A DNA stretch of 64,000 bases from positions 448,001 through 512,000 of the forward strand of contig OZ244070.1 of the NCBI GenBank assembly GCA_965215605.1, read 5' to 3'. Within the stretch, counting starts at the first letter, position 1, and the number at the start of each line of letters is the position of its first letter. The notes under the pieces were generated by a model. The model had not been told where the DNA came from. It saw only the letters and a list, made by a program, of their open reading frames with translations, and ran no database searches. This DNA comes from an uncultured Candidatus Binatia bacterium (GTDB lineage: Bacteria; Desulfobacterota; Binatia; UBA9968; JAJDTQ01). A program made the position numbers and the translations under genes. Positions 33,791 to 52,074 of this stretch are shown here, piece after piece.

Positions 33791-34699
33791 GTGGAGAACT
33801 CTCTCCGCATGTTCAGAAATCCGTTCCTCGAAGAAGTCACTGTCAACAAGGACAAGCGCCAACAGCTCGACCACCTTCTGCGGGTGACGGCGCCCCACGA
33901 ACGCGTCATCCTCGGGGGGATCGGGCTGGTGGTGTTGGCGCTTGCGGCGTGGGCGCTGTTCGGCAGCGTCGTGCGCGCGGTGACCGTCGACGGCGTCTTG
34001 ATCGAGCCCGGCGCGCGGCACGACATCATCTCGACCGAGCCGGGATACCTGGCCGAATATCTCGTGGCTCCCGGAGACCGCGTCGAGGCCGGCGCGCCGA
34101 TCGCGCGACAGAGCGTGCCGGAGCTCGACCGTGAGACGGCGGCCCTTCGCGACCGGGTGGAACTGCTGGAACAGGGAACCCGGCAGGCCGGCGGAGACGG
34201 CGGCCCCTTGCGCACATTGCTGGCATCGGCCCGGGTGGCGTTGCTTCAGATGGAGGCGCAACGCTCGGCAAGGGAGTATGTCGTCAGTCAGATCGCCGGG
34301 CGGATCACCGCGCTGCGAGCCTCTCCCGGTGACTACCTGCCGGCGGGCGCGGCCGTGGCCCAGCTACGGGACGCGGGGGACCAGCCCCTCCAGGCGGTTC
34401 TACGCATTGCCTCACGCATGGCACAACGCATCCGGCCGGGCATGGAGGCCTCGGTCGACGTGGTGATGCCGGACGGCACGACGCGCCGGTGGGACGGGAG
34501 GGTGGCTTCCGTCACACCCGGCCCGCTGCCTCGCTGGCTGGCCCTGCTGCCGCCCGCGGCTCCGGACTCCTCGCATCGCGTCGACGTGGTCCTGACCCGG
34601 ACGTCGGAGTTGCCGTTGCCGGACGGCACCCCGTGCCGGGTGCGTATCGTCATAGGCCGCCACTCTCCGGCGGCGCTCTTCGACCTGGAAAGGTCCTGA
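33791..34699 (+). CDS. NHLP-system HlyD-family secretion adaptor
   Basis: FRNPFLE...QQLDHLLRVTAP N-terminus typical of NHLP secretion proteins, a TM helix, and biotinyl-lipoyl-like VAPGDRVEAG. Confidence 0.88.
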   Translation: MENSLRMFRNPFLEEVTVNKDKRQQLDHLLRVTAPHERVILGGIGLVVLALAAWALFGSVVRAVTVDGVLIEPGARHDIISTEPGYLAEYLVAPGDRVEAGAPIARQSVPELDRETAALRDRVELLEQGTRQAGGDGGPLRTLLASARVALLQMEAQRSAREYVVSQIAGRITALRASPGDYLPAGAAVAQLRDAGDQPLQAVLRIASRMAQRIRPGMEASVDVVMPDGTTRRWDGRVASVTPGPLPRWLALLPPAAPDSSHRVDVVLTRTSELPLPDGTPCRVRIVIGRHSPAALFDLERS

Positions 34700-36922
34700 A
34701 TGGCAGCCCCGGGCGGGAAAGAGTCGGCGGGTTCCGGGAGCAAGCCCGGTAACGAACCTGGGAAGGGGCGCATAACCACCCCGCTGCTGATGCAGACCCA
34801 CGCCACCGAATGCGGCGCGGCATGCCTCGGCAGCGTGCTGGCTTACTTCGGCCGTTGGGTTACTTTCACCGAGCTGCGCGGCAGGTGCGAGGTCAGCCGG
34901 GACGGCTCCACCGCCGCCGGCATCATGCGGGCCGCCCGGCACTATGGACTCGAGTGCACCGGCCGCAGCGCGCCGGCGCAGCAACTCAAGAAGCTGCCGC
35001 TCCCGCTGATCCTGTTCTGGGAGTACAACCACTTCCTCATTCTCGAAGGCTTCGACAGCGAGCGGGTCTACCTCAACGACCCGGCCACGGGCCGGCGCGT
35101 GCTCTCCGCCGAGGAATTCGCCGCAAGCTATTCGGGCGTCGCCCTGCAATTCAATGCCGGGCCGGACTTCCAGCCCGGCGGCACCCGGGCCAACCTCCTG
35201 CAAAGACTCCCCGCATGGCTGCACGACACACGGGGGGCGCTGGCCTATGCCGTGGCATGCGGCCTCTTGCTGGCCGTGCTGGCCCTGGTCACCCCGGCGG
35301 TCCTGGGCATATTCGTGGATCGGGTGCTCGGAGAGAACGAAGCCTGGGGGGGCCTGATGGCGGGAGCGTTGACCGCCGCGGCGGCCCTGGTCTATGGGCT
35401 TGCCTGGCTCAAGCAGCGGTGGCTTCAGCGCCTTTCCGTGCGCATCTCGGTGATCGCCGGCAATCGTTGCCTGTCGCGCCTGCTCCGGCTGCCGGTGGAG
35501 TACTTCAGCCACCGCATGGTGGGTGAGCTCACCGTCCGGCTCCTTTCCATCGACAGGATCGCCAAGAACCTGTCGGAACACTTTCTCGGGGTGCTCATCG
35601 AGATCGCCATGAGCGTGCTCTTCCTGGCCTTCATGCTGGCCTACGACGCCATGCTGGCATCCATCGTCCTGGGGCTGGCGGTGTTGAACGGGATCCTCGT
35701 ACGCGTGATCACTCGCCTCCGCACGGACCAAAGCCATGCCTTGCGGCGCGAGCAGGGATTGCTGATCGGCGTGGGCACGCTGATGTTGAACCAGGCAGAC
35801 CATTTGCGGATGACGGCGGAGGACGACGGGTTCTTTGCCCGCTGGAGCGGCCATCAGGCGCGTGAGCTGGGAGCGCGCCAGCGGTTCTCGGAGTTGAGCC
35901 ACGTCAACGCGGCCATGCCGGGACTGTTCATGATCCTGGGCCACGTGGCCGTGTTGACCATCGGCGCCGGCCAGGTCATCGCCGGCGATCTGACCCTGGG
36001 CGCGCTGGTGGCGTTCTACATCGTGGCGGGCATGTTCCTGGAGCCCGTGGGCCGCTTCGTCGAGTTTGCCGACCAGCGGCAGGCCCTCGAGACCGACATG
36101 CAGCGCCTGGACGACATCACCCAAACCCCCGAAGATCCGGGCTTGACCCGTGACGCCGCTGTTTCGGAGACCATCGCGACGTTCAACGGGCGGCTGCGCC
36201 TGGCGGGCCAGGTGGAGCTGCGCAACGTCACCTTCGGCTACAACCGCGGCCGTCCGCCGTTGATCAAGGACTTCAGCCTGACCATTCAGCCGGGACAGCG
36301 GGTGGCCGTGGTCGGTCCCAGCGGCTCCGGCAAATCGACGCTGTCGCGGCTGGTATCCGGCATCTATCAGCCCTGGTCGGGCGAGATCCTGTACGACGGC
36401 CGTCCGCGAAACGAGATCCCCCGCGAGGTCCTGTCGCGCTCCTTGTCGATGGTGGACCAGGACGTCGTCCTCTTTTCCGCCACCGTGCGCGAGAACGTCA
36501 CCCTGTGGAACCCCACCGTCCCGGACGAGGATATGGTGGCCGCGGCCCGGGACGCCTGCATCCATGACGAGATCCTCAACCGGCCGCTGGGCTACGGCAC
36601 TCCCGTCGAAGAAGACGGGAGCAACTTCAGCGGCGGCCAGCGACAGCGGCTGGAAATCGCCCGGGCGCTCGTGGGCAACCCCACGGTGCTGATCCTCGAC
36701 GAGGCCACCAGCGCTCTCGACGCCGCCACCGAAGAGAGCGTCGACGACGCGCTGCGGCGCCGGGGTTGCAGTTGCCTGATCGTCGCACACCGGCTGAGCA
36801 CGGTGCGGGACTGCGATCAGATCATCGTCCTCGAGAAGGGCGTGGAAGTGCAGCGCGGCACCCACGACGAGCTCATGGCTGACGAAACCGGACTGTACTA
36901 CCGGCTCGTCCGCGCGGGATAA
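34700..36922 (+). CDS. NHLP-family peptidase-containing ABC exporter (C39 + ABC)
   Basis: C39 triad QTHATECGAACL / WEYNHF / LNDPA; Walker A GPSGSGKST; FSGGQRQR; LDEATS. Confidence 0.95.
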   Translation: MAAPGGKESAGSGSKPGNEPGKGRITTPLLMQTHATECGAACLGSVLAYFGRWVTFTELRGRCEVSRDGSTAAGIMRAARHYGLECTGRSAPAQQLKKLPLPLILFWEYNHFLILEGFDSERVYLNDPATGRRVLSAEEFAASYSGVALQFNAGPDFQPGGTRANLLQRLPAWLHDTRGALAYAVACGLLLAVLALVTPAVLGIFVDRVLGENEAWGGLMAGALTAAAALVYGLAWLKQRWLQRLSVRISVIAGNRCLSRLLRLPVEYFSHRMVGELTVRLLSIDRIAKNLSEHFLGVLIEIAMSVLFLAFMLAYDAMLASIVLGLAVLNGILVRVITRLRTDQSHALRREQGLLIGVGTLMLNQADHLRMTAEDDGFFARWSGHQARELGARQRFSELSHVNAAMPGLFMILGHVAVLTIGAGQVIAGDLTLGALVAFYIVAGMFLEPVGRFVEFADQRQALETDMQRLDDITQTPEDPGLTRDAAVSETIATFNGRLRLAGQVELRNVTFGYNRGRPPLIKDFSLTIQPGQRVAVVGPSGSGKSTLSRLVSGIYQPWSGEILYDGRPRNEIPREVLSRSLSMVDQDVVLFSATVRENVTLWNPTVPDEDMVAAARDACIHDEILNRPLGYGTPVEEDGSNFSGGQRQRLEIARALVGNPTVLILDEATSALDAATEESVDDALRRRGCSCLIVAHRLSTVRDCDQIIVLEKGVEVQRGTHDELMADETGLYYRLVRAG

Positions 36923-36926
36923 CCCG

Positions 36927-39848
36927 ATGGAGACCTCGCAGTTTCACCCCCTGGCAGACCTGGCGGCCGAGTCGGGAACGGCCGTCCCCTGCGCCGGCAA
37001 CCTTCCGCTGGACATGGACGATCCCCGGTTCGTCTGGTTCATCGAGACGGGGGCGGTCGACCTTTTTCTGGTGGAACGCCGGGACGGGGTGGAGCAGTCC
37101 GCGCCACAGCACCTGTTGCGCGCCGATGCCGGGCGGTTGCTGCCCGGTGTGACCCCCGAGGCGGCGGACACCACCCTCGGCCTGATGGCGAAGGGGTTGC
37201 CGAATACGATTCTGCGGCGCCTCCCGATCACCAGCCTGGCGGCCATCCGCAGCACAGAGCTGGCGGCGCACGTCGACGCATGGCTCACGGACGTTTCCGC
37301 CATCCTGTCGCGGGACGTTCCGCACCTGCCCCGACCTGACGGGCTGGTGGAATCCGGACAGGCTCCGCAGGTCCTGAAGGGTACGCTTTCGTCGCGCCGG
37401 GGCGTGGCATGGGTATCGACCCCGCCGGACTCCGGGCTGTTCATGGACTTGATCGACCCGGCGGAGCGCGATGCGGAAGACCGCGCCGGGGCGGCCAGGA
37501 TACCCCTCACGCCGGCGAGTTGGCTCACGCTGACCGGGGAGCTGGAGCTTTACGCCCAATCCTCGGAAGCCCTGGCCGAAGAGGGCCTGCTGCTGCCGGC
37601 CCTGGCGAGGTTTCACGCCGTGGCGTTCTCGCTGGAACGACTCAACCGCGGTCTGGCGGTGGTGGATCAGGCGAATCTGGAGCGGGCACGGGCCGCCAAC
37701 CGCCGCACCGACGAGGAAGGCGCCCGCCGCCGGCTGTTCAACCTCTACGGCCTGCAGGAACCGGACGGCGCGGCGGCGGGCGATTCGGTGCTGCTCGAAG
37801 CCCTGCGGGCCGTCGGCGCCCACGAGGGAATCGACTTCAAATGGCCCGAACGGAACGAGGCCGCCGGGTCCGACGCCGTCATGCGCAAGGTCCTGGAAAC
37901 GTCGGGAGTACGTGGACGGCGGGTGCGGCTCGCCTCGCAGGACCGCTGGTGGGTTGGTGACAGCGGCGCCATGCTCGCTTTCCGCGCCGACGACGACCGG
38001 CCGGTGGCGTTGTTGCCGGGCGTGCTGGGGCCCTATCTCGAAGTGGATCCCGTCGACCGCCGCAGGACCCGGGTCACGCCTGAACGCGCGGCATCGCTCC
38101 GCGCCGACGCGTGGGCATTTCAGCAACCACTCGGGTCAGGCCAAGCCGGCCTGCGGGACCTCTTGCGCCTCGCCGTCAAGGGGTTGCCCCGCGACTTCGT
38201 GCGCTTCCTGCTGGCCGGGCTTCTGAGCGGCCTCGTCATGCTGCTGCCTGCCATCGTGGTGGGCATCATTGTCGACGAGGTGATTCCCGCCGGCGAGGCC
38301 GGCCTGTTGTATCTGGCCGGCGCGGCACTGGGAGCGTTCGCCCTGATCCGGGCGTTGCTGCACATTCTCCAGGGAATGGCGCTGATGCGCCTGGAAGGCC
38401 GTGTCGCCTCGCGAGTGGAGGCCGCGTTCTGGGACCGGCTGCTCCGGCTGCCGCCGGGCGTCCTCCATCGTTACCCCGCCGGGGACCTCGCCATACGGGG
38501 GATGACGTTCCAGCGACTCCGTGACGCCGTGCAAGGCGCGGTGGCCGACGGGGTTCTGTCTCTCCTCTTCCTGTCGCCCGCGTTCCTGCTCATATTCTTC
38601 TACGACGCCATGCTGGGCGTCGTGGCAGCCGCCTTCGGCCTCCTGTCACTGCTGGCGACGGTGGGACTCGGCCTGCGCCAGATACCACCGCAAGGCCGGG
38701 TAACCCGGACCGTCCAGGGGCTGGCCGGGCGGCTGTTCCAGCTCGTCAACGGCATTTCCAAGCTCCGCGTGGACGGCGCCGAAGGCTCCGCGTTTGCGGT
38801 CTGGGCGCGGGACTACCGCGAGCAGAAGCATGCGGAGCTGGAGGTGGCTCGGTTCGAAACCCATCTACGGGCGTTCGGTGCGGCCTTGCCTCTGCTGGCG
38901 GCGGCGGTGCTGTTGCTGGCCGCGACCTTGCCGGACGGGCGGACCATCACGGCGGGTGACTTCCTCGTCATCTACACCCTGTTCATGCTGTTCCAGACGG
39001 CGGTGGCCCGCCTGGGCATGTCGTTCAGCACCGTCGCCGCCATCGTGCCCGCCCTGGATCAGGTCCGGCCGTTCCTCGCCCAGGCGCCGGAGACGGGCGC
39101 CGACGGCGAACCGGTCGAGTCGCTGGGGGGCGACATCGCGTTCGACCACGTCTCCTTCCGGTACGGCCCGGACGGCCCGTTGATCCTCGACGACGTCTCC
39201 ATCCGAGCCCGCCCCGGCGAGTTCGTCGCCATCGCCGGCGAGTCGGGCGCGGGCAAGAGCACCCTCTTCCGGCTGGCGCTCGGTCTGGACCAGCCGTCCG
39301 GCGGCGCCCTGTACTACGACGGGCGCGACCTCAAGCACCTCAACCTCAAGCAGGTCCGCCGGCAGATCGGCGCGGTCCCGCAGCAGGTGCAGCTCCACCC
39401 ACAGGACCTCTGGGACAACATCGTCGGCGACGACGAAGAAGCCACCGTGGACGATGCCTGGGAGGCGGCCCGGCTCGCGGCCGTCGACCAGGAGATCGCG
39501 GCGATGCCCATGGGGATGATGACCAACGTGGGCGCAAGCACCAGCGTTACATCCGGGGGCGAGAGCCAACGCATCGTCATCGCCCACGCGCTGCTGCGCA
39601 ACCCGCGCATCCTGCTGCTGGACGAAGCGACCAACTGGCTCGACAACGACAACCAGTCCAGCATCATGGACAACCTCGCGGGCCTCACCTCCACGCGTAT
39701 CGTCATTGCCCACCGGCTTTCCACGCTGCGCCAAGCCGACCGCATCTACGTCATGCGCGCCGGGAAGGTAGTCCAGGAAGGCTCCTTCGCCGAGTTGACA
39801 GCAACCGAGGGCGTCTTCCGGGATCTAGTGCGACGGCAGATCGCGTAA
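36927..39848 (+). CDS. NHLP-system second ABC transporter (no peptidase; N-terminal cNMP-like domain)
   Basis: VWFIETGAVDLF N-terminus, TM domain, GESGAGKST, SGGESQR, LDEATN. Confidence 0.92.
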   Translation: METSQFHPLADLAAESGTAVPCAGNLPLDMDDPRFVWFIETGAVDLFLVERRDGVEQSAPQHLLRADAGRLLPGVTPEAADTTLGLMAKGLPNTILRRLPITSLAAIRSTELAAHVDAWLTDVSAILSRDVPHLPRPDGLVESGQAPQVLKGTLSSRRGVAWVSTPPDSGLFMDLIDPAERDAEDRAGAARIPLTPASWLTLTGELELYAQSSEALAEEGLLLPALARFHAVAFSLERLNRGLAVVDQANLERARAANRRTDEEGARRRLFNLYGLQEPDGAAAGDSVLLEALRAVGAHEGIDFKWPERNEAAGSDAVMRKVLETSGVRGRRVRLASQDRWWVGDSGAMLAFRADDDRPVALLPGVLGPYLEVDPVDRRRTRVTPERAASLRADAWAFQQPLGSGQAGLRDLLRLAVKGLPRDFVRFLLAGLLSGLVMLLPAIVVGIIVDEVIPAGEAGLLYLAGAALGAFALIRALLHILQGMALMRLEGRVASRVEAAFWDRLLRLPPGVLHRYPAGDLAIRGMTFQRLRDAVQGAVADGVLSLLFLSPAFLLIFFYDAMLGVVAAAFGLLSLLATVGLGLRQIPPQGRVTRTVQGLAGRLFQLVNGISKLRVDGAEGSAFAVWARDYREQKHAELEVARFETHLRAFGAALPLLAAAVLLLAATLPDGRTITAGDFLVIYTLFMLFQTAVARLGMSFSTVAAIVPALDQVRPFLAQAPETGADGEPVESLGGDIAFDHVSFRYGPDGPLILDDVSIRARPGEFVAIAGESGAGKSTLFRLALGLDQPSGGALYYDGRDLKHLNLKQVRRQIGAVPQQVQLHPQDLWDNIVGDDEEATVDDAWEAARLAAVDQEIAAMPMGMMTNVGASTSVTSGGESQRIVIAHALLRNPRILLLDEATNWLDNDNQSSIMDNLAGLTSTRIVIAHRLSTLRQADRIYVMRAGKVVQEGSFAELTATEGVFRDLVRRQIA

Positions 39849-39874: not shown

Positions 39875-39997
39875 CCAAAAATATCGCCGAACCAAAGCAT
39901 ATCAAAAAATGCCTAAATCATCTCCAAAATAAGATTGCACTGTGAGAGCAACAAGGGTATAATCTTTTAGTTACGATCGGTAAAAACAAGGAGGTGA
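39875..39997 (+). promoter_or_regulatory. Strong sigma70 promoter and RBS of the RiPP precursor
   Basis: A-tract-rich upstream region, TTGCAC (39935-40)-N17-TATAAT (39958-63), SD AAGGAGGTGA (39988-97). Confidence 0.85.
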
Positions 39998-40000
39998 CAT

Positions 40001-40264
40001 ATGCAGGCGTTTCAATCGGCAGAGGATATGCGCCGTCAGTTGACGGAGAAGGCGACGGAAGATCCCGCATTCCGGGCACAGCTCGTGGCGGATCCCAAGA
40101 GCGTCCTCTACCAGGAGTTCGGCGTGTCGGTTCCCGACAATATCGACATCCAGGTGCATGAGAGCGACATGCGCACCGTGCACCTGGCATTGCCGCCTAG
40201 CCCCGTGCTGGACGAGGAACAGCTCCAGGCGGTTTCCGCCGGTCTTTGCTGCTGCGGGATCTAG
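40001..40264 (+). CDS. NHLP/proteusin RiPP precursor; predicted core LCCCGI
   Basis: Nitrile-hydratase-like leader (KATEDPAFRAQLVADPK...HLALPP), double-Gly-type site LDEEQLQAVSAG, then LCCCGI and stop. Confidence 0.95.
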   Translation: MQAFQSAEDMRRQLTEKATEDPAFRAQLVADPKSVLYQEFGVSVPDNIDIQVHESDMRTVHLALPPSPVLDEEQLQAVSAGLCCCGI

Positions 40265-40273
40265 ACCAGGTTC

Positions 40274-40362
40274 ACCGCTCCCGGCAAGGGCTTGGAGCGG
40301 TCCGACGATAAAAGGGGACCCGCGGGCGCGACACCTCATCGCGTCAGCGGTCCCCGTTTCTT
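40274..40362 (+). terminator. Two hairpins downstream of the precursor (stabiliser or terminator)
   Basis: ACCGCTCC...GGAGCGGT (40274-40301) and GGGGACC...GGTCCCC followed by GTTTCTT (~40314-40362). Confidence 0.55.
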
Positions 40363-40478
40363 GACCGAGCCTCCATGGCACCATAACGCTTCCTGTTGGA
40401 TCGGGCGGAGATGGCGCATCCTCGGGATGAATGTCCGCTTGACACCTTCGAATCTCTCAACCAGGCCCAGCCCTCGCA

Positions 40479-42797
40479 ATGCAGCATTTCGAAACGCGAT
40501 TCGCGGAGTGGGTGGTGGCGGCCCGCTGGCCGATCGTGGCGGCCACGTTGATTCTGGTCGCGGTGGCCGCGAGCGGCAGTCTGTTCCTCAAGTTCTCCAC
40601 GGACTATCGCGTATTCTTCAGCGAAGACAATCCTCAACTCCTGGCCCTCGAGGCGTTGGAAAGCACCTACGGGAAGAGCCACAACGTCCTGTTCATGATC
40701 GTTCCGGAGGATGGCGACGCCACGTCGGAACAGGCCCTGGCGGCAGTGGGCTGGCTCACCGAGCGCGCCTGGCAGGCGCCGTACTCGAGACGCGTCGATT
40801 CCATCGCGAACTTCCAGCATACCACCGCCGACGGCGACGACTTGTCGGTGCGAGACCTTGTCGACCCGACGAAGCTGGCCGATGGCGGGGAACGGGCGCG
40901 GATCCGCGCCGCGGCCCTGGCCGACCCGCGGCTTGCGGGAAGCCTCCTGGCCCGGGACGGCAGTGTGAGCGCCGTCAGCCTGACCGTGGAGCTGCCCGAC
41001 GAAAATCAAACCGTGACGGTGCCCGAGGTCGCCGAATTCGCCCGCGGGCTCGCTGCCGAGGTGGAAAATCGGTTTCCAGGGATCGACCTCCGTCTGGTCG
41101 GCACGGTGATGATCAACCACGCTTTCTCGGAAGCGTCGGTAGACAGCCAGAAGATCTTCCTGCCTGCTAGCCTCGCCATCATGGCCCTGGTTCTTGCAAT
41201 CCTTACCCGGGGATTCGCGGGGCTGGCGGCGACGGGGTTGGTGATCGTCTTCTCCGTCGTCGTGTCGATGGGGCTGGGGGGTTGGGTCGGGCTGCCGTTC
41301 TCCCCGCCCACGGCACCGGCGCCGACCATCGTGCTGATGATCGTCGTGGCCAACTGTGTGCACCTGCTGATGGCGTTGCTGCAACGCCTGCGGGCCGGCG
41401 ATTCCAGGCGCGCGGCGATCGTCGAAGCCGTCAGGCTCAATCTGTATCCGATCTTTCTCGCCAGCGTGACCACGGCGTTCGGCTTCCTGACCATGAATTT
41501 CTCCGAAGTGCCGCCATACCGCCACCTGGGAAACTTCGTCGCCTTCGGTATCGGCGCCTCGTTCGTGCTCTCGGTCACGTTCCTGCCGGCGCTGCTCTCG
41601 CTGCTCCCTGTTCGCGCGCCCCGGGCCGCGCGGCACGAGGACCCCGCGATGGCCGCCATGGCGAAATTCGTGGTGCGGCGCCGGAAGGCCCTTTTGTGGG
41701 GATCGGCGGCGGTGGCGTTCGCCCTGCTGGCGGCCATACCCCGCAACGAGCTCAACGACGTTCTGGTGCACTTCTTCAACGAAAGGGTCGAGTTCCGGCA
41801 GGATACGGACTTCCTGGACGAGAGGTTGAGCGGCAACACCGTGCTCGAATACTCGCTCGCCTCGGCCGGCCCGGGCCACGTCGCCGACCCCCTCTTTCTG
41901 GCCGACGTATCGGCTTTCGCCGACTGGTACCGCAAACAGCCCGAAACACGGCACGTCAACGTCATCACCGACACGTTCCGGCAGCTCAACAAGAGCATGC
42001 ACGGCGACGATCCGGCCGCCTACCGGCTTCCGGCAAGGCGCGATCTTGCCGCGCAATACCTGCTGCTTTACGAACTCTCTCTGCCCTTGGGACTGGACCT
42101 GAACAACCGGATCGATTCCGCCAAATCGGCGACGCGCATGACGGTAACAGCAAAGACCCTTTCCTCGCGGGAGGTGCTGGAGTTGAACGCGCGCGCGGAA
42201 GCCTGGCTGAAGGGCAACACGCCGCGTATTACCCGCGTTGACGCCTCGGGTCCCGCGCTGCTCTTCGCCCATATCGGGCAACGCAACATCCGCGCGATGC
42301 TGCTCGGAACCGCGGTGGCGCTCCTCGGTATTTCTCTCCTCCTCGTCGTCCCCTTGCGGTCGCTCCGGCTCGGCCTCGCGAGCCTCGTGCCCAATTTTGT
42401 CCCCGCGGTAATGGGCTTCGGCGTCTGGGGACTGATGGTCGGACAGGTGGGACTCGCGCTTTCGGTGGTGGTGGCCATGACCATCGGGATCGTCGTGGAC
42501 GACACCGTACATTTTCTCAGTAAATACCGCCGCGCGCGGCGCGAGTGCACGCCGGAGGACGCCGTGCGCTACGCGTTTCAGACGGCGGGGCGGGCAATGG
42601 TCACGACCTCGGCCGTCCTCGTGGCGGGTTTCCTGATCCTGGTCCTTTCCCCATTCATCCCCACCGCGCAGGTAGGGCTGCTCACGGCAATGATCATCGC
42701 GTTCGCGCTGCTCACCGATTTGCTGCTCCTGCCGGCGCTGGTGCTCACCGTGGACCGTGGCGTCCCGCCCGCCGGGACGGTCCATACCGAAGCCTGA
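40479..42797 (+). CDS. MMPL/RND-family membrane transporter
   Basis: Two TM repeats with large loops; LASVTTAFGF, GIVVDDTVHFL, GRAMVTTS, DLLLLPAL. Confidence 0.92.
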   Translation: MQHFETRFAEWVVAARWPIVAATLILVAVAASGSLFLKFSTDYRVFFSEDNPQLLALEALESTYGKSHNVLFMIVPEDGDATSEQALAAVGWLTERAWQAPYSRRVDSIANFQHTTADGDDLSVRDLVDPTKLADGGERARIRAAALADPRLAGSLLARDGSVSAVSLTVELPDENQTVTVPEVAEFARGLAAEVENRFPGIDLRLVGTVMINHAFSEASVDSQKIFLPASLAIMALVLAILTRGFAGLAATGLVIVFSVVVSMGLGGWVGLPFSPPTAPAPTIVLMIVVANCVHLLMALLQRLRAGDSRRAAIVEAVRLNLYPIFLASVTTAFGFLTMNFSEVPPYRHLGNFVAFGIGASFVLSVTFLPALLSLLPVRAPRAARHEDPAMAAMAKFVVRRRKALLWGSAAVAFALLAAIPRNELNDVLVHFFNERVEFRQDTDFLDERLSGNTVLEYSLASAGPGHVADPLFLADVSAFADWYRKQPETRHVNVITDTFRQLNKSMHGDDPAAYRLPARRDLAAQYLLLYELSLPLGLDLNNRIDSAKSATRMTVTAKTLSSREVLELNARAEAWLKGNTPRITRVDASGPALLFAHIGQRNIRAMLLGTAVALLGISLLLVVPLRSLRLGLASLVPNFVPAVMGFGVWGLMVGQVGLALSVVVAMTIGIVVDDTVHFLSKYRRARRECTPEDAVRYAFQTAGRAMVTTSAVLVAGFLILVLSPFIPTAQVGLLTAMIIAFALLTDLLLLPALVLTVDRGVPPAGTVHTEA

Positions 42798-42839: not shown

Positions 42840-44168
42840 CTACTTCCTCTTTCCCGGCGGCGCCGGGCTTTCTCCGAATGGCATGCCTTCCCCCTGGAAC
42901 ACCTGCTTCGGATCGAACTCTCTCTTCCACCGGATGCCCGTTTCCAGCTTCTCTCCGAAGTGTTCCTTCCATTCCTCGCGCCCATAGCCCACGCGGCCCG
43001 ACAGATAGCTCTTTCCTCCGAGGCCGACGAGTGTCCGGGTGACCTCCTTCAGTCTTTCCGCCACCTCGCTGGCCCTTTCGTAGGCGCCCAGCACGGCCAG
43101 GATATGGTACGAGAACATGCGCCTCCCGCTCGGGTGCATGAAGAGCGGGGCGTCGATCGCCTCGGTATTGATCGGATAGATCCCGATCCAGCTTTCGGGT
43201 GCTGGCGGCACCCACTCCCGGTCCAGCCAAGGCTGGGCGAGCACCGTCGGAAGGGTTTCCCAGGGCATGAACCAATCGCGCCACGGGTAGTAGTGGCTCC
43301 GGCTGAACAGCCAGCCCAGATACATCCCGGCCCGTCCGACCTCGGCGGTGTCACGGATGCTGACAATCTCCTCGTACCCCAGCCCTTCGAGCACCGTTCC
43401 GTCATCGTGTTCCCGGTCGTACTCGACGCCGGCATCCATGATGATCTCGCTGTCGTGGAACCGGGTCTCCGCTCGCAGACGGCCGAACCGGCCCTCGTCG
43501 ACGGCCTGTTCGAAGTCACGCGCGAACCGGTCGAAATCGCGATAGCGGAGCTCGTACTGCCGAATCCGTTCTCCGGCCTTTCGAACGCGGATCCACGCGT
43601 CAGCAATGACGCCGAATTGTCCCTGGCCACCCCTCACCGCGTCGAAGAGGTCCGCGTTCCGGGTGCGTGAGCACCGTACTCGCTCGCCGGTTCCGGTCAC
43701 CACGTCGAGTTGCTCGACCTGTCCGATCTGCATCCCGTAACGGTGGGACGTGTTGCCCAGCCCTCCCGCGGACAAAGTTCCTCCGACGGTCACATCCAAC
43801 GTATCCACCAGCACCCGTGGCAGCCGTCCCGCCCCACGCAGCGCCTCCAACACCTTGCCCCACGGCGCTCCGCCTTGCGCCCGCACCAAGTCTCCCCCCA
43901 GGGGCCGGACTCGATCAAGGTACATCGTGTCGAGCACCAGGCCGCCGTCCGTGAGGCTCTGTCCGCCCTGAGAGTGTCCTCCTCCGCGGACGGCCAGTTG
44001 GACTCCGTCGCCGGCCGCCCCGCGGACGATGCTCGACAGCTCATCGACGCTCTTCGGTCGCGCCACCGCTCCGGGCATCTTCCTGATCATTCTTCCCCAG
44101 TCGTACGATCGAGCCTCCCGGTCTTCCCGGTCTTTGCTCACGCTCGATTCGACACCTTGTTCGACCAT
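42840..44168 (-). CDS. FAD-linked oxidoreductase (VAO/PCMH fold, cytokinin dehydrogenase-like)
   Basis: RGGGHSQGGQS (covalent-His motif), TVGGTLSAGG, LFDAVRGGQGQFGVI, HYYPW, KREFDP. Confidence 0.88.
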   Translation of the reverse strand: MVEQGVESSVSKDREDREARSYDWGRMIRKMPGAVARPKSVDELSSIVRGAAGDGVQLAVRGGGHSQGGQSLTDGGLVLDTMYLDRVRPLGGDLVRAQGGAPWGKVLEALRGAGRLPRVLVDTLDVTVGGTLSAGGLGNTSHRYGMQIGQVEQLDVVTGTGERVRCSRTRNADLFDAVRGGQGQFGVIADAWIRVRKAGERIRQYELRYRDFDRFARDFEQAVDEGRFGRLRAETRFHDSEIIMDAGVEYDREHDDGTVLEGLGYEEIVSIRDTAEVGRAGMYLGWLFSRSHYYPWRDWFMPWETLPTVLAQPWLDREWVPPAPESWIGIYPINTEAIDAPLFMHPSGRRMFSYHILAVLGAYERASEVAERLKEVTRTLVGLGGKSYLSGRVGYGREEWKEHFGEKLETGIRWKREFDPKQVFQGEGMPFGESPAPPGKRK

Positions 44169-44348
44169 TTCTCCTCCTCTCGGGGCACCGTTCCCCGCGG
44201 CAAGATCCTAGAGGCACGAAGCCGCTTCGTCAACGTGCTTCCCGGTTCCGGATCGCTCTTGCATTTCCGTCGGCGGCTACCTAGTCTTTCCCCCGACACG
44301 GGAGGCCACATCGTGGCCGGTATGCAGCAACGGGGGACCAGAGTGGAA

Positions 44349-45176
44349 ATGGAAACGTCTGTCGCCAAACACTACGCCGACTTGACCGAACGCATGGAGA
44401 AGTTCGGCGGGGATCTGCTGGCATGCCATTTCGGCCTTTGGGGACCGGACACGACCACCGATCAGGAAGGCCTGTTGCGCGCCAACCATACCCTGGTGCA
44501 GGGGTGCGATCTCGGCGCGGGACAGCGTGTGCTGGATGCCGGCTGCGGCGTGGGCGGCACCGCCATCATGCTGGCGGAGGCCTATGGCGCCCACGTCACC
44601 GGGCTGACGATCTGCGAGCCGCACGTCGCGGTGGCGGCACAACACGCCGAACGGCGCGGCGTCGGCCATCTGGTGGATTTCCGCCACGGGGACTTCATGG
44701 AGCTGCCGTTCCCTGACGCCAGTTTCGATGCGGTCTTGAATCACGAGTCGTTCTGCTACGCGGACGACAAGCTCGCCTACCTCCGGGGGGTCCACCGGGT
44801 GCTCAAGCCGGGAGGCCGCTGGCAGGCCCTCGAAGGACTGCTGAGCGGCGCGCCGATGTCCGAAGCGCAGGAAGCGCTTCACGCAACCGCACAGCGGGGC
44901 TGGCGCATGCCGCCACTCGAGCCGTGGCGCGACGTTCTCGCGGCTCTCGAGGAAGCGGGTTTCGCGCAGATACGGGAGCAGGACCTCTCCGCCGAGGCGA
45001 TGCGGTCCACGGAAAGAATCCGCCAGGGCTGGCTGTTGCTGACTTTCCTGAATCCCCGCGCCGGCGGGCTGAATCGGGCCTCCCAGGAGTTCATGGAAGC
45101 GACCGTCGGCTACGATCAGGGACTGCAGGAAGGGGTGTTCACCTACCACTTCCTGTCCGGCGCGAAGCCTGCGTAG
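44349..45176 (+). CDS. Class I SAM-dependent methyltransferase (sterol/tocopherol/RebM-like)
   Basis: HFGLW, VLDAGCGVGG, LPFPDASFDAV, RVLKPGG. Start trimmed from the ORF track entry 43710-45176. Confidence 0.9.
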   Translation: METSVAKHYADLTERMEKFGGDLLACHFGLWGPDTTTDQEGLLRANHTLVQGCDLGAGQRVLDAGCGVGGTAIMLAEAYGAHVTGLTICEPHVAVAAQHAERRGVGHLVDFRHGDFMELPFPDASFDAVLNHESFCYADDKLAYLRGVHRVLKPGGRWQALEGLLSGAPMSEAQEALHATAQRGWRMPPLEPWRDVLAALEEAGFAQIREQDLSAEAMRSTERIRQGWLLLTFLNPRAGGLNRASQEFMEATVGYDQGLQEGVFTYHFLSGAKPA

Positions 45177-45188
45177 AGGCCGGTCGAC

Positions 45189-46064
45189 TCAGCCGGGTTT
45201 TTCCGCACAGTATCGCCTGAGCTCGAAACTTCCGTTGCTCCAGGCTTCGTACAGCGTTTGGAACTGGTCGATCAACGCGCGGGTCCCGGGCGTTTCGACG
45301 CCGGCAAACCGTAGCGTTGCAAGCAGATTGTAGGCATTCCCGACCAGCCGCATGTTGTCCGCGTCTTTCCCGCCGAAATCCTCGAACTCCAGGACTTCCA
45401 GGCCCGCTTCGCGCAACTTCCCGGAGTAGGTGGACTGGCTCTCCAGACCCTGCACGGCGAACGGCTCGCACAACGGCACGATGTACTTGTCGTACGCCTC
45501 GGCCGCCAGACCGTCCCGCGCCATCCAGTCCATGGCCACGATCCTTCCCGACGGCTTCAGGATCCGGCTGGCTTCCTGAAGGAACCGCCCTCGGTCGTGG
45601 TAGTGGCATGCGCTCTCGATGTTCACCACCACGTCCACCGAAGCGTCGGCGAAAGGCAGGCTCAGCGAGCAATCGGCAAACTCGAAGCGGACTCGATCGT
45701 CCACACCGGCATCGCGTGCCTTGCCGGCGGCCATCTCCAATTGCATCCGGTTCAGATTGACGCCGGTGACCGTGCATCCCCGCGTTCTTGCAAGGTGGAT
45801 GGCGGTTCCGCCCACCCCGCACCCCGCGTCCACCACATGATGGCGTTCCTCGATGCCGGCCGGCGCGACGATGACCTCCACCATGCGCTCCACGGCGCGC
45901 GCGAGTCCCGCGGACTCCGAGAGTTCCTCGCCGGGCCGGGGACATTCTCCCGGCTCGAAGAGTCCGAAGTGGATATGGTCGCGATTCCACCCCCTGAGGT
46001 AGATGCCCGGCGTATTGTCGTCGTAGTAGCGTTCGGCGGCTTTCTTCTCGTCAGAGGCGGACAT
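45189..46064 (-). CDS. Class I SAM-dependent methyltransferase (second copy)
   Basis: HIHFGLF, VVDAGCGVGG, LPFADASVDVV, ESACHY, RILKPSG. Confidence 0.9.
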   Translation of the reverse strand: MSASDEKKAAERYYDDNTPGIYLRGWNRDHIHFGLFEPGECPRPGEELSESAGLARAVERMVEVIVAPAGIEERHHVVDAGCGVGGTAIHLARTRGCTVTGVNLNRMQLEMAAGKARDAGVDDRVRFEFADCSLSLPFADASVDVVVNIESACHYHDRGRFLQEASRILKPSGRIVAMDWMARDGLAAEAYDKYIVPLCEPFAVQGLESQSTYSGKLREAGLEVLEFEDFGGKDADNMRLVGNAYNLLATLRFAGVETPGTRALIDQFQTLYEAWSNGSFELRRYCAEKPG

Positions 46065-46083: not shown

Positions 46084-47211
46084 TCAGGAAGACGGCGGCG
46101 TCAGCAACGCCATGAAAGGATACCCCTTGACCTGCTCGATCCGGTCCCCGGCCAGCACGAGCTTGATGTGGTGAACGCCGCGCAGGAGCACGAACGGCCC
46201 CAACACGCCGAACAGCGTGGTCGGACCCGGTGCCCACTTGGCCAGCGCCGACAGCTTTTCCGGAACCGCAAGGCTTTCCTCGCGCAAGCCATCGATGAAA
46301 GCGGTCCAGAGATCGGGCCGGTCCAGCCAATGACGCGGATCTTTCGCCCTCCTCTCCTTGGCGAGGTAACTCAGTCCCAGCGTCGGACCGACCCCGCCCG
46401 CATCCACGTCCAAATGGACCCCCATCTCGACGAACCCCCCTCGCTCCGCAAGGCGCGCCAGGGTTGCGGCGGCGACCGGACTCTGTCCGGGCCAGCCGAC
46501 GCGTTCCAGGAACGCCATGACGGCGCGTGAGTTCCGAAATCCTGTCACCGCAAGACGGATTGCCCTTTCGCGCGATGGAAATACGCCGATGGATTCGATC
46601 TGCGTATCCCCTTCCTGGGCCAGGTGCACCCGTTCGACCTGCCGGCGCTCAGCGGCGTCCGGGGTCCACCCGGCGGCGGAAACCAACGCGTCGAGCACAA
46701 CGTCCACGTCCCGTATCCGCTGGCCCGCGCCGTCCCCCACGATGGGCCGTTCGGCAGGGCGCAGGAATATCCCCGGATCCGGGCGCGAGCCGCCGAGTGC
46801 CGAGCCGACGTCGTACTCAAGCATCATCTTGCGGCCGACGACCTCGCGCAAGGGGGATTCCTCGGAGTCCGTCTCGGACAAGAACAGCGCGATTCCGGCC
46901 GCGGACGAATCCGTGCTTCCCGACCGCGCCTTTTGCTGGAAGACCGCGGCCGCCCCCGTCCCGCCCACCAAAGAGACGCCGAGATCCGCTCTCGGCCTGC
47001 GCTCGTTCAACGGCAGTTCGAAACCGAAGGGGAAGGCGGCCATGGTGGACGGCAACTCGCGCGCGACTCCGAGCAGACCCTCCCATTCCGCTTCGCCGAT
47101 CAAGGCAGGGGGAATCAGGTTCCTGAGGCCCTCCAGCAGCCCTCCCATGGAGTCCGCCTCGGCGGCGAGGCGCTCCTGGGTGACTGCCAGCGCTTCCTCA
47201 AAGGTCGCCAT
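46084..47211 (-). CDS. Uncharacterised RiPP-cluster protein (possible ABBA prenyltransferase-like fold)
   Basis: 375-aa soluble ORF starting 7 bp after the YcaO stop. FGFEL...ADLG, MLEYDV, IRLAV, HLDV, HHIKL...KGY strands. The fold assignment is inference only. Confidence 0.7.
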   Translation of the reverse strand: MATFEEALAVTQERLAAEADSMGGLLEGLRNLIPPALIGEAEWEGLLGVARELPSTMAAFPFGFELPLNERRPRADLGVSLVGGTGAAAVFQQKARSGSTDSSAAGIALFLSETDSEESPLREVVGRKMMLEYDVGSALGGSRPDPGIFLRPAERPIVGDGAGQRIRDVDVVLDALVSAAGWTPDAAERRQVERVHLAQEGDTQIESIGVFPSRERAIRLAVTGFRNSRAVMAFLERVGWPGQSPVAAATLARLAERGGFVEMGVHLDVDAGGVGPTLGLSYLAKERRAKDPRHWLDRPDLWTAFIDGLREESLAVPEKLSALAKWAPGPTTLFGVLGPFVLLRGVHHIKLVLAGDRIEQVKGYPFMALLTPPSS

Positions 47212-51995: not shown

Positions 51996-52046
51996 GTCAG
52001 TTCCCGTATCTGCCAACGGCCATGAAATCGAAGGGTTACAGTGTCT

Positions 52047-52074
52047 ATTGTCCACGGGTCGGAAGCCCTGTCAA
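52047..52074 (-). promoter_or_regulatory. Putative promoter of the tailoring-enzyme operon
   Basis: TTGACA (52074-52069)-N16-GACAAT (52052-52047). It overlaps the ORF-track GTG start, so the true start is probably downstream. Confidence 0.5.

What the first reader, a model, noticed from the sequence alone, without database searches (positions are those of the whole stretch)
40001..40264. 81-aa leader for a 6-aa core, LCCCGI
Seen: LDEEQLQAVSAG|LCCCGI*. Established: C39 transporters cleave after GG/GA/AG-type sites preceded by an L-x-x-x-x-L-x-x-V pattern. Inference: three adjacent Cys would give a rigid tri-thiazoline/thiazole, a scaffold suited to metal chelation or signalling rather than a classical bacteriocin. 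The YcaO C-terminus is PVPVIA rather than the canonical PxPxP.
Basis: partly seen in the sequence, partly recalled or inferred. Interest (0 to 1): 0.75.

Follow-up and report, generated by a model that had tools for sequence, protein, structure and literature searches.

The report
Sponge-type LCCC thiazoline peptide precursor variant
This small gene encodes a precursor of the already described 'srp' family of ribosomal peptides, common in sponge-associated bacteria; three adjacent cysteines are turned into thiazoline rings, and here it is an uncharacterised sub-type with a Gly-Ile tail and its own tailoring enzymes.

Summary
Window 40001-40264 (+) encodes an 87-aa peptide ending ...LDEEQLQAVSAG|LCCCGI. 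It sits beside a C39-peptidase ABC exporter and a fused E1-like/YcaO cyclodehydratase that ends NPVPVIA.

It is not a new kind of system. The 81-aa leader is a standard nitrile-hydratase-like leader (NHLP, TIGR03793). The LCCC core defines the published srp ('sponge-derived RiPP proteusin') clusters. For their precursor SrpE (core LCCCW), the YcaO SrpC was shown to make three thiazolines.

This locus is a distinct sub-type: core LCCCGI, no C-terminal Trp and no SrpI brominase. Instead it has two SAM methyltransferases and a cytokinin-dehydrogenase-like FAD oxidase. Across 79 related loci the two tailoring sets never co-occur with the other core type.

Two further genes are conserved family-wide. 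One is a 375-aa protein with no sequence family that folds as an ABBA prenyltransferase barrel (Z 16.6). The other is an AlkB-like hydroxylase fused to a GlnE-like nucleotidyltransferase.

Metal binding or signalling is untested, and the mature product remains cryptic.

Verdict: new variant of a known kind, moderate interest.

The parts
33791..34699 (+). HlyD-type membrane-fusion adaptor of the export system
   Evidence: Pfam HlyD_3 and HlyD_D23. TIGR03794 'NHLP bacteriocin system secretion protein' scores 92.3 bits, below its cut-off of 156.
34700..36922 (+). C39 peptidase / permease / ATPase exporter (NHLM ABC1), the predicted leader-cleaving enzyme
   Evidence: TIGR03796 scores 881 bits, above its cut-off of 853. 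Pfam Peptidase_C39 E 7.5e-31. The Q32/C38/H111/D127 motifs are present.
36927..39848 (+). Second ABC permease/ATPase (NHLM ABC2) with a 287-aa N-terminal extension that matches no family
   Evidence: TIGR03797 scores 684 bits over residues 288-972, just under its cut-off of 709. The N-terminal 291 aa have no Pfam hit.
39935..39963 (+). Possible promoter, TTGCAC-17 nt-TATAAT, read by eye
   Evidence: Read. The tool's promoter scan did NOT list it, because the -35 hexamer matches only 3 of 6.
39988..39994 (+). Shine-Dalgarno box AAGGAGG, 6 nt before the ATG
   Evidence: Read.
40001..40243 (+). 81-aa NHLP leader, with L(X)4L at -12..-7 and Ala-Gly at -2/-1
   Evidence: TIGR03793 69.5 bits; alignment A1.
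40244..40264 (+). Core LCCCGI plus the stop codon
   Evidence: CCC is conserved in 115 of 120 listed homologues.
40268..40372 (+). Structured RNA region after the stop. It has two hairpins; the second (about 40314-40355) is followed by GUUUCUU.
   Evidence: Minimum free energy -55.7 kcal/mol, z -3.79, 0 of 200 shuffles as stable. The simple terminator scan did not list it.
40479..42797 (+). RND transporter of the MMPL / HAE3 / HpnN-like type
   Evidence: Pfam MMPL E 7e-28 and Sterol-sensing. TIGR00921 HAE3 E 8e-47, below cut-off. Present in 20 of 22 CCCGx-only loci.
42840..44168 (-). FAD oxidoreductase of the VAO / cytokinin-dehydrogenase type, specific to this sub-type
   Evidence: Pfam FAD_binding_4 and Cytokin-bind. 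Cytokinin dehydrogenase 8 (6yaq) E 4.5e-41. Found in 11 of 22 CCCGx-only loci and 0 of 33 CCCW-only loci.
44322..45176 (+). Class I SAM methyltransferase MT1. The start is uncertain; a second in-frame ATG lies at 44349.
   Evidence: Pfam Methyltransf_11 E 5.7e-24. Found in 15 of 22 CCCGx-only loci and 0 of 33 CCCW-only loci.
45189..46064 (-). Class I SAM methyltransferase MT2
   Evidence: Pfam Methyltransf_11 E 4.8e-21. Nearest solved structures are MitM, the methyltransferase 3bus and a glucose O-methyltransferase. Found in 17 of 22 CCCGx-only loci and 0 of 33 CCCW-only loci.
46084..47211 (-). 375-aa protein with no sequence family and a predicted ABBA (PT-barrel) prenyltransferase fold, conserved across the whole family
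   Evidence: No Pfam or NCBIfam hit. AlphaFold2 model pLDDT 92.7. The listed Foldseek matches are all aromatic prenyltransferases. VIA Z 16.6, 304 residues aligned to MpnD, 132 chains at Z>=8. A full-length homologue is found in 66 of the 79 loci.
47218..49614 (-). Fused RRE / E1-like / YcaO cyclodehydratase (SrpC-type, LynD-like), ending NPVPVIA
   Evidence: TIGR03604 271.8 bits and TIGR03882 146 bits, both above cut-off. LynD E 2.7e-167 and TruD E 4.4e-157. It is the only YcaO in the genome.
49611..52055 (-). AlkB-like membrane di-iron hydroxylase fused to a GlnE-like nucleotidyltransferase. Its stop overlaps the YcaO start by 4 nt.
   Evidence: Pfam FA_desaturase, GlnE and GlnD_UR_UTase. 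Alkane 1-monooxygenase 8f6t E 1.3e-52 over residues 71-385. Homologues are seen in both CCCW and CCCGx loci.

Best explanation
The ORF is the precursor of an srp-type (sponge-derived RiPP proteusin) peptide: an 81-aa NHLP leader followed by the core LCCCGI. The proposed route has four steps.

1. Shown for the relative SrpE/SrpC, inferred here: the leader's L(X)4L segment docks on the RRE of the fused E1-like/YcaO enzyme (47218-49614). That enzyme uses ATP to cyclodehydrate the three Cys into three contiguous thiazolines (-54 Da).

2. Inferred from gene content: sub-type-specific tailoring by two SAM methyltransferases and a cytokinin-dehydrogenase-like FAD oxidase. These take the place of the Trp brominase SrpI found in LCCCW clusters.

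3. Inferred: two family-wide enzymes act on the peptide. They are a prenyltransferase-fold protein and an AlkB-like hydroxylase/nucleotidyltransferase fusion.

4. Inferred from family knowledge: the C39 domain of the NHLM ABC1 transporter cuts after Ala-Gly. The ABC1/ABC2/HlyD system, possibly with the MMPL-like RND pump, exports the small product.

The biological role is unknown. The near-invariant core across phyla argues for a conserved molecular target or ligand rather than strain-level warfare.
For: Family scores are TIGR03793 69.5 bits, TIGR03796 881 bits, TIGR03604 271.8 bits and TIGR03882 146 bits, all above cut-off. The YcaO is very close to the cyanobactin heterocyclases LynD and TruD (E 2.7e-167 and 4.4e-157), and it is the only YcaO in the genome.

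Published experiments: the SrpE core LCCCW has its three Cys cyclodehydrated to thiazolines by SrpC (PMC10858898 passages; PMC10286304 passages). The L(X)4L motif of NHLP leaders is needed for the YcaO MprC (PMC12455567 section 4).

The core is conserved: 115 of 120 listed homologues have CCC, and 110 have AG-L before it.

In 79 related loci the YcaO, the PT-fold protein, the AlkB-NTase fusion and the transporters recur with both core types. The halogenase is seen in 17 of 33 CCCW-only loci and 0 of 22 CCCGx-only loci. MT1, MT2 and FADox are seen in 15, 17 and 11 of 22 CCCGx-only loci and 0, 0 and 0 of 33 CCCW-only loci.

The C39 catalytic motifs are intact. AlkB-NTase, YcaO, the PT-fold gene and MT2 lie head to tail on the minus strand with a 4-nt overlap and gaps of 6 and 19 nt.
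Against: No product was observed, so every chemical step here is an inference from relatives. I could not compare with the published SrpC or SrpE sequences, because the defining paper (Nguyen et al. 2021, PMC8780398) is not held. In the literature SrpC worked poorly and gave partly modified mixtures in E. coli, so full tri-cyclisation in vivo is not certain.

The HlyD and ABC2 scores are below their NCBIfam cut-offs. The substrates of the methyltransferases, the FAD oxidase, the PT-fold protein and the AlkB-NTase fusion are unknown. A heterocyclised LCCCGI has no obvious side-chain nucleophile for prenylation. The counts are limited by 10-kb flanks and contig ends.
Confidence: 0.8

Rival explanations
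1. CaaX-like reading. One or more of the Cys residues is not heterocyclised but S-alkylated (prenylated) by the PT-fold protein. The C-terminal tail (GI, W, L ...) acts like the 'aaX' of a prenylation box, and a methyltransferase caps the product.
For: A confident PT-barrel model is conserved next to the YcaO in 66 of 79 loci. A fully heterocyclised core has no side-chain nucleophile. SrpC gave only partly modified mixtures in E. coli (PMC10286304). The methyltransferases accompany the CCCGx sub-type. LCCCW loci carry an NHLP-like domain fused to a domain with a weak squalene-hopene-cyclase-type match (E 8.1e-6, below cut-off).
Against: Published data assign all three Cys of LCCCW to thiazolines. 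The PT evidence is fold only: there is no sequence match to any prenyltransferase (best profile E 0.49) and no activity data.
Confidence: 0.1
2. The locus is a decaying or silent remnant. The precursor is no longer processed, or the YcaO serves other precursors of the genome.
For: The genome has three other NHLP precursors elsewhere but only one YcaO. No RNA data exist for this organism. The one RNA run holds only short, 85-95 % alike contigs of relatives.
Against: All 11 cluster ORFs are intact and tightly packed. The other three precursors have no Cys, Ser or Thr-rich core for a YcaO (cores IGDINTW, IGDIHTW, SWSALW). The precursor has a good ribosome-binding site and a conserved core. Related 252-bp precursor genes are reported as the most highly transcribed genes of such clusters in sponges (bioRxiv 10.1101/2023.06.09.544420 section 10).
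Confidence: 0.05
3. The product is a classical narrow-spectrum bacteriocin (a TOMM or LAP antibiotic) aimed at competing bacteria.
For: It has an NHLM 'bacteriocin' export system and a YcaO. Many linear azole peptides are antibiotics (general knowledge).
Against: Bacteriocin cores are usually hypervariable (PMC4603692 says so for NHLP/Nif11 cores). This core is almost invariant across at least six phylum-level groups named in the record titles. No immunity gene was recognised among the ORFs scanned. A six-residue product is far smaller than typical LAPs.
Confidence: 0.1

Closest known systems
srp (sponge-derived RiPP proteusin) clusters: SrpE precursor, SrpC YcaO, SrpI brominase. Nguyen et al. 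2021 JACS 143:10221 was not readable here; it is known to me through PMC10858898, PMC10286304 and bioRxiv 10.1101/2023.06.09.544420.
   Same: An NHLP leader with L(X)4L at -12..-7, a cut after a small-residue pair ending in Gly, and a core that starts LCCC. A fused YcaO that ends NPxPVIA in the LCCCW loci too. NHLM-type ABC exporters. The PT-fold protein and the AlkB-NTase fusion are shared with LCCCW loci. The precursor is 55-61 % identical to LCCCW precursors.
   Different: The core is LCCCGI, not LCCCW, so there is no C-terminal Trp to brominate. No SrpI-type halogenase is in the window. Two methyltransferases and a cytokinin-dehydrogenase-like FAD oxidase are present that no CCCW-only locus has (0 of 33).
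MprE/MprC/MprD proteusin azol(in)e system of a methanotroph (PMC12455567)
   Same: An 81-aa NHLP leader, an L(X)4L motif read by the RRE of a YcaO, and thiazoline formation on Cys. MprC/MprD also convert an LCCCW core.
   Different: Mpr has ten precursors with varied, longer cores and an FMN azoline oxidase, MprD. Here there is one precursor with a 6-aa invariant-type core, and no SagB/MprD-type oxidase in the cluster.
Cyanobactin pathways (LynD/TruD heterocyclases; F-family ABBA prenyltransferases)
   Same: The YcaO is closest to LynD, TruD and MusD (E 2.7e-167 to 1.2e-148). A PT-barrel protein is encoded next to it. Short linear cyanobactins with thiazoles, N-prenyl groups and C-terminal methyl esters exist (recalled, not checked here).
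   Different: No PatA/PatG-type protease was found among the cluster ORFs scanned. The leader is an NHLP and the cut is made by a C39 ABC exporter. The PT-fold protein has no sequence match to any prenyltransferase family.
NHLP/NHLM TOMM systems defined by Haft, Basu and Mitchell 2010 (seen only as cited in PMC4603692)
   Same: A TIGR03793 leader with the TIGR03796/03797/03794 export trio, next to a TOMM cyclodehydratase.
   Different: That description stresses hypervariable cores. This sub-family has a nearly fixed LCCC core.

Membership tests
NHLP leader peptide family (TIGR03793) | HMM score above the curated cut-off | tested here: met
   69.5 bits against a cut-off of 50.9, residues 8-81.
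NHLP leader peptide family (TIGR03793) | L(X)4L motif at -12..-7 and a Gly at -1 before the core | tested here: met
   LDEEQLQAVSAG|L. G81 is invariant and L75 invariant in alignment A1. The motif positions are as given in PMC10858898.
srp (sponge-derived RiPP proteusin) cluster | Core beginning LCCC directly after the cleavage site | tested here: met
   The same holds in 110 of 120 listed homologues.
srp (sponge-derived RiPP proteusin) cluster | C-terminal Trp (core LCCCW), the site of bromination | tested here: not met
   The core ends Gly-Ile.
srp (sponge-derived RiPP proteusin) cluster | SrpI-type flavin-dependent Trp halogenase in the cluster | tested here: not met
   No PF04820 hit lies inside the window range C1:448001-512000. 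A tblastn with the halogenase of an LCCCW locus (L065; Pfam Trp_halogenase E 1.6e-42) found nothing in the window.
srp (sponge-derived RiPP proteusin) cluster | SrpC-type fused YcaO cyclodehydratase next to the precursor | tested here: met
   TIGR03604 plus TIGR03882. It is 62-68 % identical to the YcaOs of LCCCW loci. The published SrpC sequence itself was not available for comparison.
srp (sponge-derived RiPP proteusin) cluster | Origin in a sponge microbiome | tested here: inconclusive
   The window's source is not given. Some related records carry sponge-related names (Poriferihabitaceae, Porisulfidus, 'lac_sponge'). The one RNA run with related contigs is labelled sponge metagenome.
Linear azol(in)e peptides / TOMM | YcaO with an E1-like/RRE partner or fusion | tested here: met
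   PF02624 E 1e-97, TIGR03882 146 bits, and a winged-helix domain at residues 56-127.
Linear azol(in)e peptides / TOMM | SagB/McbC-type FMN azoline dehydrogenase (needed for azoles) | tested here: not met
   The only TIGR03605 hits in the genome are at C1:194624-195874, about 250 kb before the window.
Canonical TOMM YcaO C-terminus | PxPxP motif at the C-terminus (recalled from Dunbar et al. 2014, not read here) | tested here: not met
   The protein ends NPVPVIA. 59 of 60 family homologues end PV(I/V)(A/G), 51 of them as NPxPV, and none has a third Pro. LynD aligns NPTPM at this place.
NHLM export system (TIGR03796/03797/03794) | All three components above the curated cut-offs | tested here: inconclusive
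   ABC1 scores 881 against 853 (met). ABC2 scores 684 against 709 and HlyD 92 against 156 (both best hits, but below cut-off).
Cyanobactins | PatA/PatG subtilisin-like proteases and macrocyclase | tested here: not met
   None of the 11 cluster ORFs scanned has a peptidase family other than C39.
ABBA (PT-barrel) prenyltransferases, for the 375-aa protein | PT-barrel fold | tested here: met
   Model pLDDT 92.7. Z 16.6, rmsd 4.3 over 304 residues to MpnD; 132 chains at Z>=8; all 50 listed entries are aromatic prenyltransferases.
ABBA (PT-barrel) prenyltransferases, for the 375-aa protein | Sequence membership (Pfam Trp_DMAT, PTase_Orf2 or similar) | tested here: not met
   No Pfam or NCBIfam hit. 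The profile against PDB sequences gives a best E of 0.49, to an unrelated chain.
ABBA (PT-barrel) prenyltransferases, for the 375-aa protein | Prenyl-diphosphate-dependent transferase activity | not testable with these tools
   Only indirect evidence. Invariant charged residues (E65, D76, K128, E132, D134, R219, D268, H348, K350, Y364) fall on predicted barrel strands.

The most novel reading that the evidence does not exclude
The products of the whole LCCC family, this LCCCGI form included, are lipidated. On this reading the family-wide PT-barrel protein prenylates the (partly) heterocyclised core or its freed N-terminus. The membrane AlkB-like hydroxylase fused to a nucleotidyltransferase then works on the aliphatic tail. 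The MMPL/HpnN-like RND pump places the resulting thiazoline lipopeptide in or beyond the outer membrane. This would make the long-cryptic, highly expressed sponge-symbiont RiPP a cell-surface or membrane-active factor (a metallophore or host-facing signal) rather than a soluble bacteriocin. The LCCCGI, LCCCW and LCCCL tails would then be sub-type 'heads', each tailored by its own enzymes.
Probability: 0.25. Interest if true: 0.7.

Novelty: new variant of a known kind. Interest (0 to 1): 0.42.

Why it matters
The srp-type cluster is described as exceptionally abundant across sponge microbiomes. Its product and ecological role are still unknown (PMC12426817 passage), and its precursor genes are reported as very highly transcribed. 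This locus is a complete, compact example of a Trp-free, halogenase-free sub-type in a nearly complete genome.

The comparison of 79 loci splits the family into core-type/tailoring-enzyme pairs. It also points to two family-wide enzymes that could explain why co-expression of the precursor with the YcaO alone has not yielded the natural product: a PT-barrel protein and an AlkB-like/NTase fusion. My literature searches found no paper that links either of them to srp. That gives concrete constructs and masses to test.

Tried and rejected
1. Complex prediction of the PT-fold protein with the precursor gave no verdict (scores 0.30 and 0.23 against a mark of 0.32). It counts neither for nor against binding.

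2. Sequence-profile search of the PT-fold family against PDB sequences found nothing meaningful (best E 0.49).

3. The Atlas feature search had low recognition (1292). Its first hits were hypothetical proteins. A prenyltransferase cluster appeared only at rank 12 (score 0.90). I used it as a lead only.

4. The promoter/terminator scan listed no plus-strand promoter before the precursor. The only terminator-like site near it (40228-40240) lies inside the ORF. The TTGCAC-17-TATAAT box and the post-stop hairpins are my own reading plus the fold.

5. Literature search for the core strings (LCCCGI, LCCCG, GLCCC, AGLCCC, LCCCGL, LCCCL) found 81 papers; none of the 20 listed concerns a RiPP. Sequences printed only in figures cannot be found this way.

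6. The defining paper (Nguyen et al. 2021) could not be opened by DOI or PMC id. The largest supplement of PMC10858898 could not be read, and the readable ones did not hold the terms searched. What those sources say about the other srp genes is therefore unknown to me.

7. Sequencing runs are contigs only. The RNA-library run X12 holds short 85-95 % alike pieces, for example a 193-nt contig over 39990-40155 with 10 differences. This shows relatives in that library, not expression of this gene. X1 holds the stretch nearly identically and may be the source, so it is not independent.

8. The search of 400 other genomes of the window's own phylum for the PT-fold protein found one weak match (E 3.9e-5, 24 bits). 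The protein was not found in those searched; this is no proof of absence.

9. I considered and rejected that the ORF is a chance frame. I also rejected that the odd YcaO C-terminus marks a defective enzyme.

Full report
**1. The observation**

Window 40001-40264 (+) is an 87-codon ORF whose product ends ...PPSPVLDEEQLQAVSAG-LCCCGI. An AAGGAGG box lies 6 nt before the ATG.

The peptide scores 69.5 bits on NCBIfam TIGR03793, 'NHLP leader peptide family RiPP precursor' (cut-off 50.9), over residues 8-81. It also matches Pfam NHase_alpha. A search of the large protein collection gave 217 homologues at E<=1e-3 among 218 candidates. L-12 and L-7 form the L(X)4L motif and Ala-Gly sits at -2/-1. These are the positions reported for NHLP precursors (PMC10858898 passages).

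**2. The neighbourhood**

Upstream on the same strand lies the NHLM export trio:
- a HlyD-type adaptor (33791-34699);
- a C39 peptidase/ABC exporter (34700-36922; TIGR03796 881 bits, above cut-off; catalytic motifs intact);
- a second ABC protein (36927-39848; TIGR03797 684 bits, just below cut-off).

Downstream lie:
- an MMPL/HAE3-type RND transporter (40479-42797);
- a cytokinin-dehydrogenase-like FAD oxidase (42840-44168, minus strand);
- a methyltransferase (about 44322-45176, plus strand);
- a minus-strand operon of an AlkB-like hydroxylase fused to a GlnE-like nucleotidyltransferase (52055-49611; AlkB E 1.3e-52), a fused RRE/E1-like/YcaO cyclodehydratase (49614-47218), a 375-aa protein of no family (47211-46084) and a second methyltransferase (46064-45189).

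The genes on either side look unrelated: an ornithine cyclodeaminase-family protein and an MFS transporter upstream, and a chlorite-dismutase-family protein and a sigma-54 activator downstream. I therefore place the cluster at about 33.8-52.1 kb.

**3. It is a known family**

Of the 120 listed homologues, 115 carry CCC in the last six residues. 110 of them have the form AG-L-CCC. The tails after CCC are GI (69), L (12), G (6), GV (5), GL (4), I (4), W (4), F (3), none (3) and five singletons.

The literature identifies this as the srp ('sponge-derived RiPP proteusin') family:
- The SrpE core is LCCCW. [quoted passage not shown]
- A preprint reports 191 highly conserved precursors, with a 252-bp gene as the most transcribed gene of such clusters in sponges. 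116 precursors lay beside a YcaO and 66 beside a halogenase (bioRxiv 10.1101/2023.06.09.544420 section 10).
- A 2025 paper notes a conserved 'LCCC' motif with varied ends, plus 'several genes of unknown function' (PMC11832590).
- A 2025 review still calls the cluster cryptic and its role unclear (PMC12426817).
- NHLP leaders of 81 aa are normal (PMC12455567).

I could not open the defining paper, Nguyen et al. 2021.

**4. What is particular here**

A scan of species-representative genomes returned 79 related loci (273 confirmed relatives, the best 80 kept). Nearly all are metagenome-assembled genomes. Their titles name Alpha- and Gammaproteobacteria, Nitrospirales, Gemmatimonadota, Acidobacteriota, Thermodesulfobacteriota and Binatia, and some carry sponge-related names.

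I searched these loci with the window's proteins and with a halogenase taken from an LCCCW locus.

| Gene | Loci with only ...CCCW cores (n=33) | Loci with only ...CCCGx cores (n=22) |
|---|---|---|
| SrpI-like halogenase | 17 | 0 |
| MT1 | 0 | 15 |
| MT2 | 0 | 17 |
| FAD oxidase | 0 | 11 |
| 375-aa protein | 28 | 18 |
| YcaO | 22 | 15 |
| AlkB-NTase fusion | 17 | 8 |

- Loci with CCC, CCCx or CCCG ends (n=15) have MT1 in 8, the FAD oxidase in 5 and MT2 in 0. Presence was scored at >=50 % identity; one of these loci, L072, has a 46 % identical full-length MT2 homologue.
- Eight loci carry both an LCCCW precursor and a CCCGx-type one (MCCCGI in seven, WCCCGN in one) a few kb apart.
- All counts are limited by 10-kb flanks and contig ends.

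The window has no halogenase. It therefore represents a Trp-free, halogenase-free sub-type with its own tailoring set.

**5. The YcaO**

It is closest to the cyanobactin heterocyclases LynD, TruD and MusD (E 2.7e-167, 4.4e-157 and 1.2e-148), and it is the only YcaO in the genome.

59 of 60 complete homologues end PV(I/V)(A/G), 51 of them as NPxPV, and none has a third Pro. Because this includes LCCCW/halogenase loci of the experimentally active type, the ending is unlikely to mean inactivity. That PxPxP is the canonical form is recalled, not checked here.

No SagB-type azoline dehydrogenase is in the cluster. Thiazolines are therefore more likely than thiazoles, unless the FAD oxidase takes that role, which would be new.

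**6. The 375-aa protein**

It has no Pfam or NCBIfam hit. With an alignment of 54 homologues, AlphaFold2 gives pLDDT 92.7 and pTM 0.92.
- Foldseek: 111 matches at E<=0.001, and those listed are all aromatic prenyltransferases, at modest TM-scores of 0.36-0.55.
- VIA-align: Z 16.6, rmsd 4.3 over 304 residues to MpnD; 132 chains at Z>=8; all 50 listed entries are ABBA prenyltransferases.
- Invariant charged residues fall on the predicted barrel strands.

This is evidence of fold only. No sequence-level match exists, and the complex prediction with the precursor gave no verdict.

Three features together make a coherent but unproven case that the family's products are lipidated: this fold, the AlkB-like membrane hydroxylase fused to a nucleotidyltransferase, and an MMPL/HpnN-like RND pump directly after the precursor. 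Two literature searches found no paper that links srp with a prenyltransferase.

**7. Regulation and expression**

After the stop codon the RNA can form two strong hairpins, the second followed by GUUUCUU (-55.7 kcal/mol, z -3.79). A TTGCAC-17-TATAAT box precedes the gene by eye, but the scan tool listed neither feature. Public runs gave only contigs. An RNA library labelled sponge metagenome holds 85-95 % alike pieces of the precursor region. This shows that relatives are present there. It does not show that this gene is expressed.

**8. Spread**

In 400 other genomes sampled from the window's own phylum, the PT-fold protein was found only once, and weakly. Yet near-identical cluster architectures occur in records named for several phyla. 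This fits the published view that the cluster moves among members of one habitat.

**9. Verdict**

The tri-thiazoline reading is supported by published work on the nearest relative. Thiazoles, metal binding and signalling remain untested. The long leader and the odd YcaO end are family norms. This is a new variant of a known kind. Its main value is the sub-type/tailoring map and the prenyltransferase-fold lead.

Noticed in passing
Own genome outside the window: G000:C6:405-665 (L001), C1:237431-237661 (L002), C1:244171-244404 (L004): Three further NHLP-leader precursors score above the TIGR03793 cut-off. Their cores after GG are IGDINTW, IGDIHTW and SWSALW: no Cys and a C-terminal Trp. Each lies beside a Trp-halogenase gene (629, 628 and 84+57 bits on PF04820). 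They look like brominase-only proteusins without azolines.
   Followed up: partly
L079:16426-17724 (-), and similar ORFs in other LCCCW loci (e.g. L066, L026): LCCCW-type loci encode a protein of about 430 aa in which an NHLP-like N-terminal domain (Pfam NHase_alpha E 2e-6) is fused to a domain with a weak squalene-hopene-cyclase C-terminal match (E 8.1e-6, below cut-off). No counterpart of the second domain was found in the window's genome.
   Followed up: partly
L026, L027, L030, L031, L032, L035, L037, L041: Eight related loci carry two precursor genes 2.4-3.5 kb apart, one LCCCW and one CCCGx-type (MCCCGI in seven, WCCCGN in L032). They have a single YcaO and PT-fold gene nearby, so one enzyme set may serve two core types.
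   Followed up: no
Own genome G000:C1:194624-195874: The only SagB-type (TIGR03605) dehydrogenase signal in the genome lies in an 873-aa open frame about 250 kb before the window. It is not next to any YcaO.
   Followed up: no
window 36927-37790 (first 287 aa of the ABC2 protein): The second ABC transporter has a long N-terminal extension with no Pfam hit. Its role is unknown.
   Followed up: no
Homologues P0002-P0121: Most homologues carry a precomputed Pfam label PF27793 beside PF02979. That accession is not in the local Pfam copy, so I did not see its name.
   Followed up: no
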